Shown here one piece after another: positions 10,875 through 24,508 of a DNA stretch of 26,439 nt. Position 1 is the stretch's first letter. Each line of letters opens with the position of its first letter. The notes under the pieces are model-generated. The model had not been told where the DNA came from. It worked only from the letters and a program-made list of their open reading frames with translations, and did no database searches. Location of the stretch: IMG/VR virus record IMGVR_UViG_2651869691_000005, one strand, 5' to 3'. Position numbers and translations under genes: made by a program. The stretch is from a virus. Its lineage: Duplodnaviria > Heunggongvirae > Uroviricota > Caudoviricetes.

Positions 10875-11306
10875 GGAGTTTACTCACATCTGACAAAATC
10901 AATATAAACAGCCCCTCCGGAGAGGGGCTGGAGAGTGGCGCTATGTGCCATTGCATGGTGCCGGGTGCCTCCCGGTGAATTCAGTACCAGCACCTGAATC
11001 CGCGATTATCCCATATACCTACTCGCTGATTGCCCCTCCGCACAGGGGGATTCACCATGCCAGTTTCTTTTAACAAACTCCCCGCAAACCAGACAACAGT
11101 CAACCGCCTGAATTGTGAAGTATTTAAAAATTTCTCCGGCTAACAGTCTGGCGTTTTCTTTTTCAGCAACGGGAAAGCAACAACCACCACACCCGCCACC
11201 AGTACACAGTCAGCCAGCACTGACATTATCCGGCTGCTGCAATGCCATTCACAAAAACAGTAAGCAATCACTTTTTACCGTAACAGGTGATAATCCAGAT
11301 ATGTAT

Positions 11307-11770: not shown

Positions 11771-11847
11771 TGGCGCGTTGTACTGGATTCGAACCAGTGA
11801 CCGATTGCTTAGAAGGCAATTGCTCTGTCCGGCTGAGCTAACAACGC
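11771..11847 (-). tRNA. tRNA-Arg (anticodon UCU)
   Basis: Reverse complement GCGTTGTTAGCTCAGCCGGACAGAGCAATTGCCTTCTAAGCAATCGGTCACTGGTTCGAATCCAGTACAACGCGCCA folds as a canonical cloverleaf with a TCT anticodon, TTCGAAT T-loop and encoded CCA. Confidence 0.8.
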
Positions 11848-11944: not shown

Positions 11945-12020
11945 TGGTGGCCCTTGCTGGATTTGAACCAGCGACCTGGCGATTATGAGTCGCTCGCTCT
12001 CACCACTGAGCTAAAGGGCC
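11945..12020 (-). tRNA. tRNA-Ile2 type (anticodon CAU, ileX/ileZ-like; elongator Met cannot be excluded from sequence alone)
   Basis: Reverse complement GGCCCTTTAGCTCAGTGGTGAGAGCGAGCGACTCATAATCGCCAGGTCGCTGGTTCAAATCCAGCAAGGGCCACCA; canonical cloverleaf, closely resembling E. coli ileX as recalled. Confidence 0.8.
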
Positions 12021-14615: not shown

Positions 14616-15743
14616 TCATGCTTTCCACTTCAGGACACCCGAATTTCTCGCGTGCATTAAAAAACGAATCAGCAACAACAGCTGGCTGCCGTGTTTTTCT
14701 TCAAAATCTTTTACCCCGGCGTGTAGTTCGCTATGGCATTTACGGCACAGCGGAATAACAAACAAATCATCAGCCTTTGTTCCCATCCCTCCCAGTCCAT
14801 GACCAATGATGTGATGCGGATCATCTGCCTGATTACCACACGTCATGCATTTCTGCGTTTTTACCCAACGCGTGTATACAGGCATCTCTTCCCGTCGTGG
14901 TTTCTGGCGCTGGAGATACTGAGCCGGTGACTCCGGATCAACGGCAATGCTTACCACCGTCTTTTCCTGTGGCGGGTTTTGCTGGTGGGCGTGAGGCAGT
15001 AGCGCAATATTTTTTGTGCGCTGCTTCAGCATGCTGGTGGCGGTCTGCTCTCCCGGCACGATGTCGCTCTCGCGGTATACTGAGCGAATTTTTTCCGCGC
15101 GTAATCCCAGTGAACGACGTAACACCGTCTCCGGTAGTGCGTCCGCTACGTTATTTATGGTTGCCCACCAGGATAATTCAGCCAGCGATAATTCCCGCTC
15201 CTGCGTGCCATTCATTGCGTGGCGGATGACATCAATCATCCATGCTGACAGGTTTTGGTGAGCAAGCTGCCCGAGTGATTCGGAAGTCTGGTTACGCAGC
15301 TGGTTGTCGCAGTGCCAGCACAACACCATCGCGCCGGTACCGTAACAATGTATGACGGTTTCACTGTGATGGTAGTCACCATGAGGCCACTGGCAGGATT
15401 TAATGTGGCGTAACAGCCAGTCAGACAATGCACCAGCACCACCAGCAGCACGAATCACCCGCTCATCGCTGAAAAATGGCAGTAATGATTTATCCTCCGC
15501 CAGCGGCTGGCGAACAGCAGGAACGACTCCGGACGGCAGACCGCGCATGCTTTTCGGTTCCGGCTCCACCAGAACTCGAGGGTTATGAAATACCTGCATG
15601 GATTCACGGCCCGGTTTTAGCACCACCAGCCCAAGTTCCGGTACCGGAACAGGTCGAAGTAATACCCGCACGTTACCTCCAGATGCGTTGCTGGAATGTG
15701 CGGGACGGACGCGGTGGGCGTTCGGAATAAGGGAGCCTGACAT
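14616..15743 (-). CDS. DUF968-family prophage protein with C-terminal HNH-like zinc-binding motif
   Basis: C-terminus CMTCGNQADDPHHIIGHGLGGMGTKADDLFVIPLCRKCHSELH (two Cys pairs plus HH). Same position as ydfU-type genes in Qin-like prophages as recalled. Start uncertain; internal ATG at 15597-15599 is an alternative. Confidence 0.65.
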   Translation of the reverse strand: MSGSLIPNAHRVRPAHSSNASGGNVRVLLRPVPVPELGLVVLKPGRESMQVFHNPRVLVEPEPKSMRGLPSGVVPAVRQPLAEDKSLLPFFSDERVIRAAGGAGALSDWLLRHIKSCQWPHGDYHHSETVIHCYGTGAMVLCWHCDNQLRNQTSESLGQLAHQNLSAWMIDVIRHAMNGTQERELSLAELSWWATINNVADALPETVLRRSLGLRAEKIRSVYRESDIVPGEQTATSMLKQRTKNIALLPHAHQQNPPQEKTVVSIAVDPESPAQYLQRQKPRREEMPVYTRWVKTQKCMTCGNQADDPHHIIGHGLGGMGTKADDLFVIPLCRKCHSELHAGVKDFEEKHGSQLLLLIRFLMHARNSGVLKWKA

Positions 15744-16017
15744 AGATTATCCAGTGACGATAATCGAGGCTGAGGGCTTTCTTAATCTCGTATCCGCGTC
15801 TGCGGTAGTTATGAATTAGCCATTCGGCCTGTTCTTCAGTACATGGTGGGTGTTGGTACCAGTCGGTTTTAAATGCGTGTGAACGCCGCCCATGCCGGAT
15901 GGCAAGGTCGGTATCAGAATTGTGAAATTTGGTTTTGTGCACCATCTGTTTTCTCTGCTGGCGCAGCAGGTGTCAGGTGTTCAGGCTGACGTGCGAATTG
16001 TAAACCAGAATGCCAGG

Positions 16018-16045
16018 AAAAAACAAAACCCGCCGAAGCGGGTTA
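16018..16045 (-). terminator. Intrinsic terminator at the 3' end of the hok transcript
   Basis: Minus strand reads AACCCGCTTCGGCGGGTTTTGTTTTTTCC: stem-loop with GC-rich stem and U-run, about 70 nt downstream of the hok stop. Confidence 0.65.
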
Positions 16046-16112
16046 AGTGCGGGTGCGTTGAGGATGCCTGACTCATCAGAGGTGGCGAGGGATTTCTCCC
16101 TCGCCTGGTCTC

Positions 16113-16268
16113 TTACTCCTCAGGTTCGTAAGCTGTGAAGACAGCGACCTCCGTCTGGCCGGTTCGGATTCGTACCTCGCAGAGGTCTTTCCTCGTTACC
16201 AGTGCCGTCACTATGACGGTTAAACAGATGACGATCAGGGCGATTAACATCGCCTTTTGCTGCTTCAT
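16113..16268 (-). CDS. hok: Hok/Gef-family type I toxin (51 aa; HokD/RelF-like)
   Basis: Found by manual translation (below the ORF-track size cutoff): MKQQKAMLIALIVICLTVIVTALVTRKDLCEVRIRTGQTEVAVFTAYEPEE, matching Hok/Gef family sequence as recalled. SD AAGGAG 8 nt upstream. A 19-codon upstream ORF (from 16322-16324) ends in ATGA overlap with the hok start. Confidence 0.8.
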   Translation of the reverse strand: MKQQKAMLIALIVICLTVIVTALVTRKDLCEVRIRTGQTEVAVFTAYEPEE

Positions 16269-16526
16269 AGCCTGCTTCTCCTTGACCTTTCGGTCCGTAA
16301 GAGGCTAATCTCTATGTGTCGCATAGATATGGCCTCAGATTAATGTTAAGCGTCTTGCAGGACGCGTAATGTTAACTGGGGCTTTTCTCTATCTGCCTTT
16401 TGGTGTTCATGCCTGAGACAGATAGCCTCAAGCACCCGCAGTCATTCTACTTAACTAAGATTTCCCCGCAAACCGTTTTTGTCCGGCACAGTAAATATCC
16501 AACTAAACCAATGGCGTTCGCTGTAT

Positions 16527-16706
16527 TTACCGCCAGTATTCAATGCACATGACCGCCATGAACACCCCTAAAAAAAGGGCATTTATATGTCCAAACATTA
16601 ATATCAAAACATCAACTTTTTCCATATACCTTGCTGTGAAGATGATGGGCATACATGATGCGAACAACCAGAACGCAACAAACAAAAACTGCAATGCGTT
16701 TTTCAT
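16527..16706 (-). CDS. Hypothetical small membrane protein (59 aa, two predicted TM segments)
   Basis: Internal ATG 16704-16706 with strong SD (TAGGGGGAATAATG); MKNALQFLFVAFWLFASCMPIIFTARYMEKVDVLILMFGHINALFLGVFMAVMCIEYWR. Sits in an AT-rich segment directly upstream of the hok locus. Confidence 0.45.
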   Translation of the reverse strand: MKNALQFLFVAFWLFASCMPIIFTARYMEKVDVLILMFGHINALFLGVFMAVMCIEYWR

Positions 16707-17179
16707 TATTCCCCCTACAATCAATGTGCAATAACATTTAAACACACCTCAATTTAGCCGGACATATAAATATCTAAACCAGAAAAAATCACTTACATAG
16801 CGTTACAAACTCTTTAGTCTAAATATTCATCGCAAAACATTCCCCATACTTATCAGCCCGTTCTGCGCCAGGTAGCTCATTGCCTTATCTGGGAATCTGT
16901 AATCAGGTTTCCGGATGCTGGTGGATTTTCGCATTTTAGTTGTTCATAAAAGTGCACAGCTTTAACCAGTTCTTCTGATGTAACCGGGACTGGCGGGGCA
17001 GTGAATAAGGCCTGAATTTCATAGTTCGGCCTGTCGTTACAATCCTCTTTTTTCGGTACATATTTCCAGTCACCAGACCACTACTTCCCCTGAAAGTCCG
17101 TAACGCCTTTTTTTCACGTAGCGATATCGCCATGCCACTGTTTTTGCTTGCCCCGCCGTTTCATGCCCTTCCTGATAAT

Positions 17180-24450: not shown

Positions 24451-24508
24451 TTTCTGGTGACGTTTGGCGGTATCAGTTTTACTCCGTGACTGGTCTGCCG
24501 CCCTTTTT
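24451..24508 (+). ncRNA. dicF: DicF sRNA homologue
   Basis: TTTCTGGTGACGTTTGGCGGTATCAGTTTTACTCCGTGACTGGTCTGCCGCCCTTTTT matches the ~53-nt E. coli DicF sequence as I recall it, with one or two substitutions. Lies in a ~550-nt noncoding stretch of the early-left operon, as dicF does in Qin. Confidence 0.7.

What the first reader, a model, noticed from the sequence alone, without database searches (positions are those of the whole stretch)
16018..16520. Stand-alone hok-type type I toxin locus in the nin-like region, with a candidate antisense (Sok-like) promoter
A 51-aa Hok/Gef-family toxin gene (16113-16268), too short for the ORF track, sits between the DUF968 gene and a small membrane-protein gene. 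It has the features of an autonomous hok module: a 19-codon upstream ORF ending in ATGA overlap with the hok start (mok-like coupling), a ~170-nt leader with a candidate promoter (TTGCGG-16-TAGAAT on the minus strand, ~16444-16471), a 3' stem-loop (16087-16108) and an intrinsic terminator (16018-16045). On the opposite strand, inside the hok 5' region, there is a candidate promoter TTGACC-18-TAATCT (16283-16312) that could drive an antisense RNA across the leader. No relBE genes are present, unlike the relBE-hokD arrangement I recall in Qin.
Basis: partly seen in the sequence, partly recalled or inferred. Interest (0 to 1): 0.6.

Follow-up and report, generated by a model that had tools for sequence, protein, structure and literature searches.

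The report
Complete hok/sok toxin-antitoxin module in prophage
This is an intact copy of the well-known hok/mok/sok RNA-controlled toxin-antitoxin cassette, located in the early (nin-like) region of a lambda-like E. coli prophage; it is real but ordinary, because about half of complete E. coli genomes carry it and a roughly 90% identical phage copy (hokW-sokW) has already been tested experimentally.

Summary
A 51-aa Hok/Gef toxin gene (16113-16268, minus strand) lies inside a roughly 420-nt transcription unit that carries every canonical hok/sok element:
- a 5' tac box that pairs with a 3' fbi box;
- an anti-SD (ucb);
- a mok reading frame with its own GAGG Shine-Dalgarno sequence;
- a 3' protective hairpin and an intrinsic terminator;
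- a convergent Sok promoter, RNA and terminator on the plus strand.

Rfam RF01794 matches the leader at 106.7 bits and Pfam HOK_GEF matches the protein at 1e-23. A 36-sequence alignment shows compensatory base changes that support the fold.

The Hok coding sequence is identical to K-12 hokD. K-12 keeps homology only from about 14-17 nt upstream of the ATG, so K-12 relBE-hokD is the truncated form and the window holds the complete one.

[quoted passage not shown] At least 80% of the 611-nt query is found in 2541 of 5426 complete E. coli genomes. Phage records annotate it as MokW or mok/hok, often at this same nin-region position.

The 19-codon upstream ORF with the ATGA overlap is a minority allele. 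Most relatives have mok in frame with hok.

Verdict: interpretation supported, already known, low interest.

The parts
16444..16471 (-). hok promoter: -35 TTGCGG (16471-16466), 16-nt spacer, -10 TAGAAT (16449-16444)
   Evidence: Read from the sequence. The -10 box (TAGAAT/TATAAT/TACAAT) keeps a fixed distance from the conserved 5' end GGGTGC in loci whose upstream flanks are unrelated. The whole promoter is conserved in the hokW locus. It does not pass the simple consensus scan because the -35 matches only 3 of 6.
16019..16437 (-). Full-length hok (mok-hok) mRNA, about 419 nt
   Evidence: The 5' end is set by the start of the Rfam RF01794 match and by conservation. The 3' end is set by the intrinsic terminator. 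MFE is -173 kcal/mol with z = -7.9 and a closed 5'-3' conformation. Covariation: 88.7% of cells are paired against 40-47% in slid controls.
16426..16437 (-). tac box (5' GGGUGCUUGAGG)
   Evidence: It pairs with fbi in the full-length fold and with the ucb AAGCCCC in the 3'-truncated fold. Compensatory changes are seen: U-A to C-G in 11 sequences and G-C to A-U in 5.
16376..16384 (-). ucb / anti-SD (AAGCCCCAG)
   Evidence: In the full-length fold it pairs with the mok SD region. In the truncated fold it is captured by tac. AAAGCCCC is invariant or nearly so in the alignment. This matches the R1 model described in PMC9841398.
16333..16336 (-). mok Shine-Dalgarno sequence GAGG
   Evidence: GAGG is invariant in 36 of 36 aligned loci and lies 7-10 nt upstream of the conserved ATG.
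16265..16324 (-). mok-like leader ORF: 19 codons (MRHIEISLLRTERSRRSRL) plus a TGA that overlaps the hok ATG
   Evidence: The start codon is conserved in 35 of 36 relatives, and in none of them does the ORF stop before the hok start. R1 mutagenesis shows that only the 19 mok codons upstream of hok are needed (PMC9841398).
16278..16283 (-). hok Shine-Dalgarno sequence (AAGGAG)
   Evidence: Read from the sequence and nearly invariant in the alignment. This is the part that K-12 hokD also retains.
16113..16268 (-). hok toxin CDS, 51 aa, coding sequence identical to K-12 hokD
   Evidence: RefSeq lists it as WP_000813254.1, 'type I toxin-antitoxin system toxin HokD'.
16127..16130 (-). UACG motif at the Tyr47 codon, a TadA A-to-I editing site (Tyr to Cys)
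   Evidence: TACGAA is invariant in 36 of 36 loci. K-12 hokD mRNA, which has the same CDS, is reported to be 6% edited (PMC12214031).
16084..16105 (-). 3' hairpin GGCGAGGGA-GAAA-UCCCUCGCC, expected to be the last stem-loop of the processed mRNA
   Evidence: Helix 16 is 97.3% paired, and 3 of its pairs change on both sides. In R1 the equivalent hairpin protects the processed mRNA from 3'-5' exonucleases (PMC9841398).
16051..16063 (-). fbi box (CCUCAACGCACCC), complementary to tac
   Evidence: Duplex energy is -21.5 kcal/mol. The box lies 58-70 nt after the hok stop in nearly all relatives that keep it. Compensatory changes are seen. K-12 hokD retains it as well.
16018..16044 (-). Intrinsic terminator of hok mRNA (AACCCGC-TTCG-GCGGGTT followed by a T-run)
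   Evidence: Found by the terminator scan.
16282..16311 (+). Sok promoter: -35 TTGACC (16282-16287), 18-nt spacer, -10 TAATCT (16306-16311)
   Evidence: It is conserved across 36 loci as TTGACC/TTGCCT ... GTAAGAGGC ... TAATCT/TAACCT. It sits at the position homologous to the sokW promoter, whose mutation unleashed HokW toxicity (PMC8621323). It does not pass the simple consensus scan because the -10 matches only 3 of 6.
16316..16389 (+). Predicted Sok antisense RNA of about 70 nt: a single-stranded 5' tail over the mok ATG, a long hairpin, then a U-rich tail
   Evidence: The fold gives -32.2 kcal/mol with z = -5.9. The hairpin (helix 4 on the sense strand) has 6 covarying pairs. The length fits the 71-nt complementarity reported for sokW (PMC8621323). 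The ends are inferred, not mapped.

Best explanation
This is a complete hok/mok/sok type I toxin-antitoxin cassette of the hokD/hokW lineage. It is carried as a roughly 450-bp self-contained module in the nin-like region of a lambdoid E. coli prophage and points the same way as the pR early operon.

**Shown here at sequence level**
1. The hok promoter makes a roughly 419-nt mRNA. Its 5' tac box pairs with the 3' fbi box, and in that closed form the mok Shine-Dalgarno sequence is held by the upstream anti-SD (ucb).
2. When the fbi box is removed in silico, the 5' end re-pairs with ucb. The mok SD/AUG region then folds into the hairpin that Sok targets.
3. A convergent promoter inside the leader would make a Sok RNA of about 70 nt. 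This RNA is complementary to the mok SD and start codon.

**Inferred from R1 hok/sok and Sp5 hokW-sokW**
1. The stable mRNA is slowly trimmed at its 3' end into the translatable form.
2. Abundant but short-lived Sok pairs with that form, blocks mok translation and triggers RNase III cleavage.
3. When Sok supply stops, ribosomes translate the 19-codon mok frame, open the hok ribosome-binding site, terminate at the UGA inside AUGA and restart at the hok AUG.
4. Hok inserts into the inner membrane, collapses the membrane potential, and kills or lyses the cell.

**Likely biological role**
In a prophage the payoff is most likely retention of the prophage, an earlier or stronger lysis on induction as shown for hokW-sokW, or both.
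For: - Protein family: Pfam HOK_GEF 1.2e-23 and PHROG 251 'MokW-like host killing' 2.8e-33.
- RNA family: Rfam RF01794 scores 106.7 bits over 16266-16437, full model length. The validated hokW locus (113.5 bits) and an author-annotated mok/hok locus (111.1 bits) match the same model in the same orientation.
- Full-length fold: closed by tac/fbi, z = -7.9. The truncated fold switches to tac/ucb, as in the R1 model summarised in PMC9841398.
- Covariation on 36 loci from Escherichia, Kluyvera, Photorhabdus, Pantoea and others: 33 pairs change on both sides against 9-17 in slid controls, and 0 of 500 shuffles reach the observed score. In the tac/fbi helix, U-A changes to C-G.
- Sok: the promoter is conserved and the predicted RNA folds as a tail plus a terminator hairpin, z = -5.9.
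- mok: the ATG and GAGG are conserved, and the ORF always reaches the hok start. R1 mutagenesis shows that only translation up to the hok start is needed (PMC9841398).
- Relatives: about 90% nucleotide identity to the hokW locus across the transcript, and that locus is experimentally a type I TA system (PMC8621323).
- The module boundaries coincide with the homology boundaries across unrelated flanks.
Against: - Nothing was measured for this sequence. Sok transcription, mRNA processing, toxicity and rescue are all inferred.
- Neither promoter passes a plain sigma-70 consensus scan.
- The mok frame differs from the validated hokW allele. Relative to hokW the window has a 2-nt gap and a 1-nt insertion, which give a short ORF instead of an in-frame Mok-Hok. 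Coupling efficiency could therefore differ.
- Chromosomal hokA, hokB and hokC loci were reported not to mediate post-segregational killing, as cited in bioRxiv 10.1101/2025.08.07.668861. An intact structure does not guarantee activity.
Confidence: 0.85

Rival explanations
1. The module's main role is in lysis rather than addiction. hok points the same way as the pR delayed-early operon. On induction, antiterminated early transcription would run through the locus against the Sok promoter and shut off Sok supply by promoter occlusion or collision. Hok would then be released ahead of holin and endolysin and increase phage release.
For: - In Sp5, sokW RNA disappears after mitomycin C treatment while hokW mRNA stays. 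HokW appears about 1 h before endolysin in a RecA-dependent way, and deleting the locus halves phage release. The authors left the cause of Sok loss open (PMC8621323).
- hok has the same orientation as the neighbouring early genes in the window, in K-12 Qin, in mEp460, a Rac-type phage and PPompW, and in Stx2 phage I.
- In 80 IMG/VR contigs, the two ORFs downstream of hok are on the same strand in 63 of about 70 scorable cases (a crude ORF-based count on non-independent samples).
Against: - The interference mechanism is my inference and has not been tested.
- Co-orientation is the default for genes in this region, so it is weak evidence.
- This role does not exclude addiction or phage exclusion.
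- Whether the window's prophage can be induced is unknown.
Confidence: 0.35
2. The locus looks intact but is functionally silent or decaying, as reported for several chromosomal hok loci. The frameshifted short mok could be a first step in that decay.
For: - Chromosomal hokA, hokB and hokC loci did not give post-segregational killing, as cited in bioRxiv 10.1101/2025.08.07.668861.
- The window's mok allele is a minority form: 3 of 36 loci and 11 of 77 full-leader viral contigs.
- One close relative has an IS679 element just upstream of the locus.
Against: - Every RNA element is conserved and shows compensatory changes, which indicates ongoing selection.
- The short ORF keeps exactly the 19 codons that R1 mutagenesis found necessary and sufficient for coupling (PMC9841398).
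- The same short form arose independently in the hokC lineage (L014, L016).
- The Hok CDS is intact and identical to the K-12 hokD CDS.
Confidence: 0.15
3. It is a truncated remnant of a relBE-hokD (relBEF) operon, as found in K-12 Qin.
For: The Hok coding sequence is identical to K-12 hokD, and the neighbourhood is Qin-like: a DUF968 (ydfU-like) gene downstream, with DicF and dicB in the same window.
Against: - The window has the full 169-nt leader that matches Rfam sok.
- K-12 lacks that leader and has relE there instead. Homology starts only about 14-17 nt upstream of the ATG, and K-12 gives no Rfam sok hit.
- No relB or relE ORF is present in the window.
Confidence: 0.01

Closest known systems
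hokW-sokW of Sakai prophage 5 and 933W-type Stx2 phages (Takada et al. 2021, PMC8621323)
   Same: - About 90% nucleotide identity across the transcript, with Hok 47 of 51 residues identical.
- The hok promoter is the same, and tac, ucb, the Sok hairpin, fbi and the Sok promoter all sit at the same positions.
- Both lie in a lambdoid prophage and point the same way as an early operon.
- Both match the same Rfam model.
   Different: - Genome position: nin-like region of the pR operon here, against the distal part of the left arm next to an attachment-site feature in Stx2 phage I.
- mok: the window has a 19-codon ORF that ends at AUGA, whereas hokW has a 70-aa in-frame Mok-Hok.
- Sok promoter: TTGACC-18-TAATCT here, TTGCCT-17-TAACCT there.
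- The hokW locus in Stx2 phage I lacks the window's terminator sequence downstream of fbi.
hokD (relF) in the relBE-hokD operon of K-12 cryptic prophage Qin
   Same: - The Hok coding sequence, hok SD, 3' hairpin, fbi and terminator are identical or nearly identical.
- The prophage backbone is of the same type, with a DUF968/ydfU gene downstream and dicF-dicB nearby.
   Different: - K-12 lacks the hok promoter, tac, ucb, mok and the Sok gene. relBE occupies that place and hokD is the third gene of the operon.
- The gene immediately downstream is rem in K-12 and an unrelated 90-aa PHROG 1212 gene here.
hok/mok/sok (parB) of plasmid R1, the paradigm system
   Same: - The architecture and the predicted conformational switch are the same: tac/fbi in the full-length form and tac/ucb in the truncated form (PMC9841398).
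- Also shared are a GAGG mok SD, 19 mok codons upstream of hok, a Sok RNA antisense to the mok start region, and a 3' protective hairpin.
   Different: - It sits on a prophage rather than a plasmid.
- Hok is only distantly similar to R1 Hok (HokW is 44% identical to R1 Hok according to PMC8621323).
- R1 mok is 70 codons long, out of frame and overlaps hok, whereas here mok stops at the hok start.
hokC/mokC/sokC (gef) chromosomal locus
   Same: It aligns over the whole mRNA at roughly 76% identity, with the same elements and the same tac/fbi register.
   Different: - It has a fixed chromosomal position rather than a prophage one.
- The Sok hairpin is 18 nt shorter.
- mokC is usually in frame with hokC.

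Membership tests
[quoted passage not shown] | Hok/Gef-family toxin ORF of about 50 aa with an N-terminal membrane helix and a conserved C-terminal part | tested here: met
   Pfam PF01848 matches at 82.9 bits against a cut-off of 22, covering model positions 1-42 of 42. PHROG 251 matches at 2.8e-33.
[quoted passage not shown] | Conserved structured leader of hok mRNA from the transcript start to the hok AUG | tested here: met
   Rfam RF01794 scores 106.7 bits against a gathering score of 59, covering model positions 1-157 of 157 at 16437-16266.
[quoted passage not shown] | Long-range 5' tac / 3' fbi pairing that closes the full-length mRNA | tested here: met
   The pairing is present in the MFE fold. 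It is 12 bp with a duplex energy of -21.5 kcal/mol and keeps a conserved position. Three of its pairs show compensatory changes.
[quoted passage not shown] | Alternative tac/ucb pairing after 3' trimming, which frees the mok SD from the anti-SD | tested here: met
   This was tested in silico only. The fold of 16437-16066 pairs GGG.GCUU with AAGC.CCC and re-forms the mok SD/AUG hairpin.
[quoted passage not shown] | mok leader ORF with its own SD, translated at least up to the hok start region | tested here: met
   The ORF is 19 codons with a GAGG SD, and its stop overlaps the hok ATG. The frame differs from R1 and hokW, but it keeps the portion shown to be required (PMC9841398).
[quoted passage not shown] | Cis-encoded antisense Sok RNA with its promoter inside the leader, covering the mok start region and ending in an intrinsic terminator | tested here: inconclusive
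   At sequence level the feature is met: the promoter is conserved at the homologous position and the predicted RNA folds well. Transcription itself cannot be shown with these tools.
[quoted passage not shown] | Hok is toxic and Sok neutralises it, dependent on RNase III | not testable with these tools
   This has been shown for hokW-sokW (PMC8621323). The bioRxiv survey 10.1101/2025.08.07.668861 lists HokD among the studied Hok homologues, and its passage on overexpression of their coding sequences was cut off in the text retrieved here. My recollection, not checked here, is that relF/hokD is toxic when overexpressed.
relBE-hokD (relBEF) operon of Qin | relB and relE immediately upstream, with hokD lacking its own leader, mok and sok | tested here: not met
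   No relBE ORFs are present and the full leader is present. The breakpoint of homology with K-12 lies at about window position 16282-16285.
hokW-sokW allele of Sp5 | In-frame 70-aa MokW-HokW reading frame and location in the distal left arm of a 933W-type phage | tested here: not met
   The window has a net -1 frame change in mok and lies in the nin-like region of the pR operon. It is a close homologue of that allele, not the same allele or position.

The most novel reading that the evidence does not exclude
Two linked readings are not excluded.

(a) The 19-codon mok that ends in AUGA may be a distinct, recurrent coupling mode based on termination and re-initiation. It would yield only authentic 51-aa Hok, whereas the common in-frame allele could also yield a 70-aa Mok-Hok. 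It arose independently in the hokD/W and hokC lineages.

(b) hok is co-oriented with the antiterminated early operon. Prophage induction could therefore silence the convergent Sok promoter by transcriptional interference, which would make Hok an induction-triggered lysis accessory. That would explain the unexplained RecA-dependent loss of sokW RNA.
Probability: 0.25. Interest if true: 0.4.

Novelty: already known. Interest (0 to 1): 0.13.

Why it matters
It matters little as a discovery. hok/sok is a textbook system, this allele is widespread, and a close homologue has been characterised.

- **Annotation.** RefSeq calls only the 51-aa CDS "hokD". It annotates neither mok nor Sok, and it places a probably spurious 59-aa ORF antisense over the hok 3' UTR.
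- **Evolution.** The window shows what the K-12 relBE-hokD locus looked like before relBE replaced the leader.
- **Open questions.** The frame variability of mok and the orientation of the locus relative to early phage transcription are modest, testable leads on how prophage hok loci are triggered.

Tried and rejected
- **Consensus promoter scan.** It found neither reader-proposed promoter. The -35 of the hok promoter and the -10 of the Sok promoter each match only 3 of 6. Promoter support therefore rests on homology, not on the scan.
- **Is the 90-aa gene downstream of hok the Rem of Qin?** No similarity was found. It belongs to PHROG 1212, of unknown function.
- **The upstream small hydrophobic ORF (16527-16745).** It has no Pfam or PHROG match, RefSeq does not annotate it, and I did not pursue it.
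- **Truncated relBEF remnant.** Rejected on the evidence.
- **R1-type long out-of-frame mok in the window.** Absent. That frame has a TAG just after the conserved ATG position and no start codon after it.
- **First regex for fbi.** It missed the Photorhabdus and Pantoea loci because their fbi is GCGCCC. I replaced it with a duplex search.
- **Alignment A3.** The hokW row (L056) was given coordinates shifted by 6 nt, so it has 6 extra 5' bases and lacks the last 5 nt. This costs one cell in 4 pairs of helix 1 and does not change the result.
- **Label error in the script.** Frame-0 ORFs ending at +150 were mislabelled 'out-of-frame'. The corrected counts are 25 in frame, 7 of R1 type, 3 short and 1 without an ATG.

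Full report
**1. The observation**

- The 51-aa ORF at 16113-16268 (MKQQKAMLIALIVICLTVIVTALVTRKDLCEVRIRTGQTEVAVFTAYEPEE) matches Pfam HOK_GEF at E = 1.2e-23 over the full model. It also matches PHROG 251 'MokW-like host killing' at 2.8e-33.
- Upstream, an ATG at 16324 opens a 19-codon frame. Its TGA (16267-16265) overlaps the hok ATG (16268-16266) as CTATGA.
- The terminator stem at 16027-16044 with its T-run was found by the scan.
- A 90-aa gene (15673-15945) separates hok from the DUF968 gene, so the two are not immediate neighbours.
- Neither promoter passes the plain sigma-70 scan. Their support comes from homology, described below.

**2. What it is**

Rfam RF01794 ('sok') matches 16437-16266 at 106.7 bits against a gathering score of 59, over the whole model.
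- The match is on the hok strand. It starts at GGGUGCUUGAGG and ends at the hok AUG.
- The Rfam model therefore represents the hok mRNA leader. The real Sok RNA is the reverse complement of part of it.

The predicted full-length transcript (16437-16019, 419 nt) folds with z = -7.9.
- Its 5' GGGUGCUUGAGG pairs with CCUCAACGCACCC at 16063-16051. This is the tac/fbi closure of the R1 paradigm.
- In the same fold, the ucb segment GCCCCAG pairs with the mok SD region.

When the fbi box and terminator are removed in silico (16437-16066), the 5' end pairs with AAGCCCC (ucb) instead. GAGGC...GCCUC then closes a hairpin that contains the mok AUG. This is the switch from full-length to truncated mRNA described for R1 in PMC9841398.

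The plus-strand RNA predicted from 16316 has a single-stranded 5' tail over the mok start, a long hairpin and a U-rich tail, with z = -5.9.

**3. Comparative support**

A scan of one genome per species returned 53 loci. Full-length leader homologues occur in Escherichia, Shigella, Kluyvera, Pseudocitrobacter, Photorhabdus, Pantoea and Erwinia.
- Homology typically begins around the -10 box or the transcript start and ends at fbi or the terminator, while the flanks are unrelated. The transcription unit is therefore the mobile module.
- The tac/fbi duplex is found ending 58-70 nt after the hok stop in nearly all of them. It shows compensatory changes: GGGUGC/GCACCC against GGGCGC/GCGCCC, and GAGG/CCUC against GAGA/UCUC.

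I projected the window's own MFE structure onto a 36-sequence alignment.
- 88.7% of cells are paired, against 40-47% when partners are slid by 1-3 columns.
- 33 pairs change on both sides, against 9-17 in the slid controls.
- 0 of 500 shuffles reach the observed covariation score.

On the opposite strand, the Sok promoter is conserved as CTCCTTGACC or CTCCTTGCCT, then GTAAGAGGC, then TAATCT or TAACCT.

**4. mok**

The ATG and its GAGG SD are conserved in 35 of 36 loci, and the ORF never stops before the hok start. The frame varies (counts corrected for a label error).
- 25 loci have mok in frame with hok, giving a 68-70-aa Mok-Hok as annotated for MokC and MokW.
- 7 loci have the R1-type out-of-frame overlapping mok.
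- 3 loci, including the window, have the 19-codon ORF that ends in ATGA.

Among 80 IMG/VR contigs that encode an identical Hok, 66 are in frame, 11 have the short form and 3 lack the leader.

Relative to hokW, the window has a 2-nt gap after ATGC and a 1-nt insertion in the GGUC stem.

R1 mutagenesis showed that only translation of the 19 mok codons upstream of hok is required, and that stops beyond the hok start are harmless (PMC9841398). The short allele is therefore expected to work, by termination and re-initiation at AUGA. That last step is my inference.

**5. Relation to K-12 and to known phage loci**

The hok coding sequence is identical to K-12 hokD.
- Homology with K-12 starts only about 14-17 nt upstream of the ATG and runs through fbi and the terminator. 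relE lies upstream of that point in K-12.
- The K-12 region gives no Rfam sok hit.
- The window is therefore the complete form and Qin's relBE-hokD is the truncated one.

Across the transcript the window is about 90% identical to the hok locus of Stx2 phage I, a 933W/Sp5-type phage. I take that locus to be hokW-sokW, because its 51-aa Hok matches the length given in the paper and its sequence matches the paper's hokW primers. That locus was shown experimentally to be a type I TA system (PMC8621323):
- HokW is toxic.
- Mutating the sokW promoter unmasks the toxicity, and sokW supplied in trans partially rescues growth.
- Neutralisation depends partly on RNase III and Hfq.
- sokW disappears on mitomycin C induction, and HokW then appears in a RecA-dependent way.
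- Phage release is halved without the locus.

**6. How common it is and where it sits**

- At least 80% of the 611-nt query is present in 2541 of 5426 complete E. coli genomes, where it is annotated 'hokD'. Two genomes carry it at 100% identity.
- The window as a whole is 99.4% identical over 92% of its length to prophages in E. coli O111:H2 12A and FDAARGOS_1059.
- Gene order on the minus strand is: cro, ydaT, an O-like gene, a P-like gene, DUF1627, DUF977, several small genes, hok, the 90-aa PHROG 1212 gene, DUF968, rusA, DUF1133 (a Q-like family), a methyltransferase, tRNAs, lysis genes and terminase.
- The same nin-region placement without relBE occurs in mEp460, in a Rac-type phage whose authors annotated both mok and hok, and in PPompW.
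- Enrichment of hok in prophages has been published (bioRxiv 10.1101/2025.08.07.668861).

**7. Mechanism and role**

- Shown here at sequence level: all the RNA elements, the two alternative folds, and their conservation.
- Inferred from R1 and hokW: slow 3' trimming, Sok pairing followed by RNase III cleavage, mok-dependent hok translation, and membrane killing.
- The role in this prophage is open. It could be addiction, help with lysis, phage exclusion, or a combination.
- hok is co-oriented with the early operon in all six contexts I inspected. I therefore suggest that antiterminated sense transcription could silence the convergent Sok promoter on induction. This is untested.

**8. Verdict**

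The feature is a member of a textbook family, present at 100% identity in public genomes and characterised experimentally in a close homologue. Novelty: already known. Interest: low.

Noticed in passing
window 16266-16437 (-): The Rfam RF01794 'sok antitoxin' model matches the hok-sense strand, from the transcript start to the hok AUG. This holds here and in two other loci. An annotation taken from it would place 'sok' on the wrong strand and make it about 170 nt long instead of about 70 nt.
   Followed up: partly
window 16127-16130 (-): The Tyr47 codon of hok is followed by G, giving UACG, the TadA A-to-I editing motif. TACGAA is invariant in all 36 aligned loci. K-12 hokD mRNA, which has the same CDS, is reported to be 6% edited to Cys (PMC12214031).
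   Followed up: partly
window 15892-16071 (+): RefSeq annotates a 59-aa 'hypothetical protein' (WP_001112732.1) here. It runs antisense across the hok terminator, the fbi box and part of the next gene. It is probably a spurious call.
   Followed up: no
window 16527-16745 (-): This is a small hydrophobic ORF of 72 aa from a GTG start. A 59-aa version starting at ATG 16706, preceded by AGGGGG, is more likely. It lies just upstream of the hok promoter, has no Pfam or PHROG match, and is not annotated in RefSeq.
   Followed up: partly
L001 3320-5908 (NZ_CP066032.1): In FDAARGOS_1059, an otherwise near-identical prophage has an IS679 (IS66-family) element whose last gene ends about 170 nt upstream of the hok promoter. 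The literature reports IS elements next to chromosomal hok loci (PMC12214031).
   Followed up: no
window 10900-11089 (-): There is a full-length Rfam match to sRNA STnc100 (132.4 bits). It lies in the late-region leader between the phage tRNA genes and the large esterase gene.
   Followed up: no
window 11774-11847 and 11948-12020 (-): Two phage-borne tRNA genes lie downstream of the DNA methyltransferase gene. They are annotated tRNA-Arg and tRNA-Ile in the matching genome.
   Followed up: no
window 24452-24503 (+): DicF sRNA is present (74.2 bits). In the matching genome ydfC lies upstream and dicB downstream, so the immunity-side region is Qin/Dic-like.
   Followed up: no
L028 759-1155 and 1321-1717: An Enterobacteriaceae isolate (MGYG-HGUT-00110) carries two tandem full-length hok loci about 560 nt apart. 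Each is about 78% identical to the window's locus.
   Followed up: no
L017, L022; hit H31 (PP818812.1): Near-identical hok loci appear on very short contigs labelled Acinetobacter idrijaensis (275 nt) and Xanthomonas pisi (431 nt). One also appears in an 'Actinobacillus phage' record at 94.6% identity. These look like E. coli-derived contamination or mislabelling rather than true host range.
   Followed up: no
window 14616-15743 (-): The mechanical ORF for the DUF968 / HNH-like gene is 375 aa. RefSeq starts it 24 codons later, at 351 aa, and the PHROG 96 match also begins at residue 25. With the later start it does not overlap the 90-aa gene upstream.
   Followed up: partly
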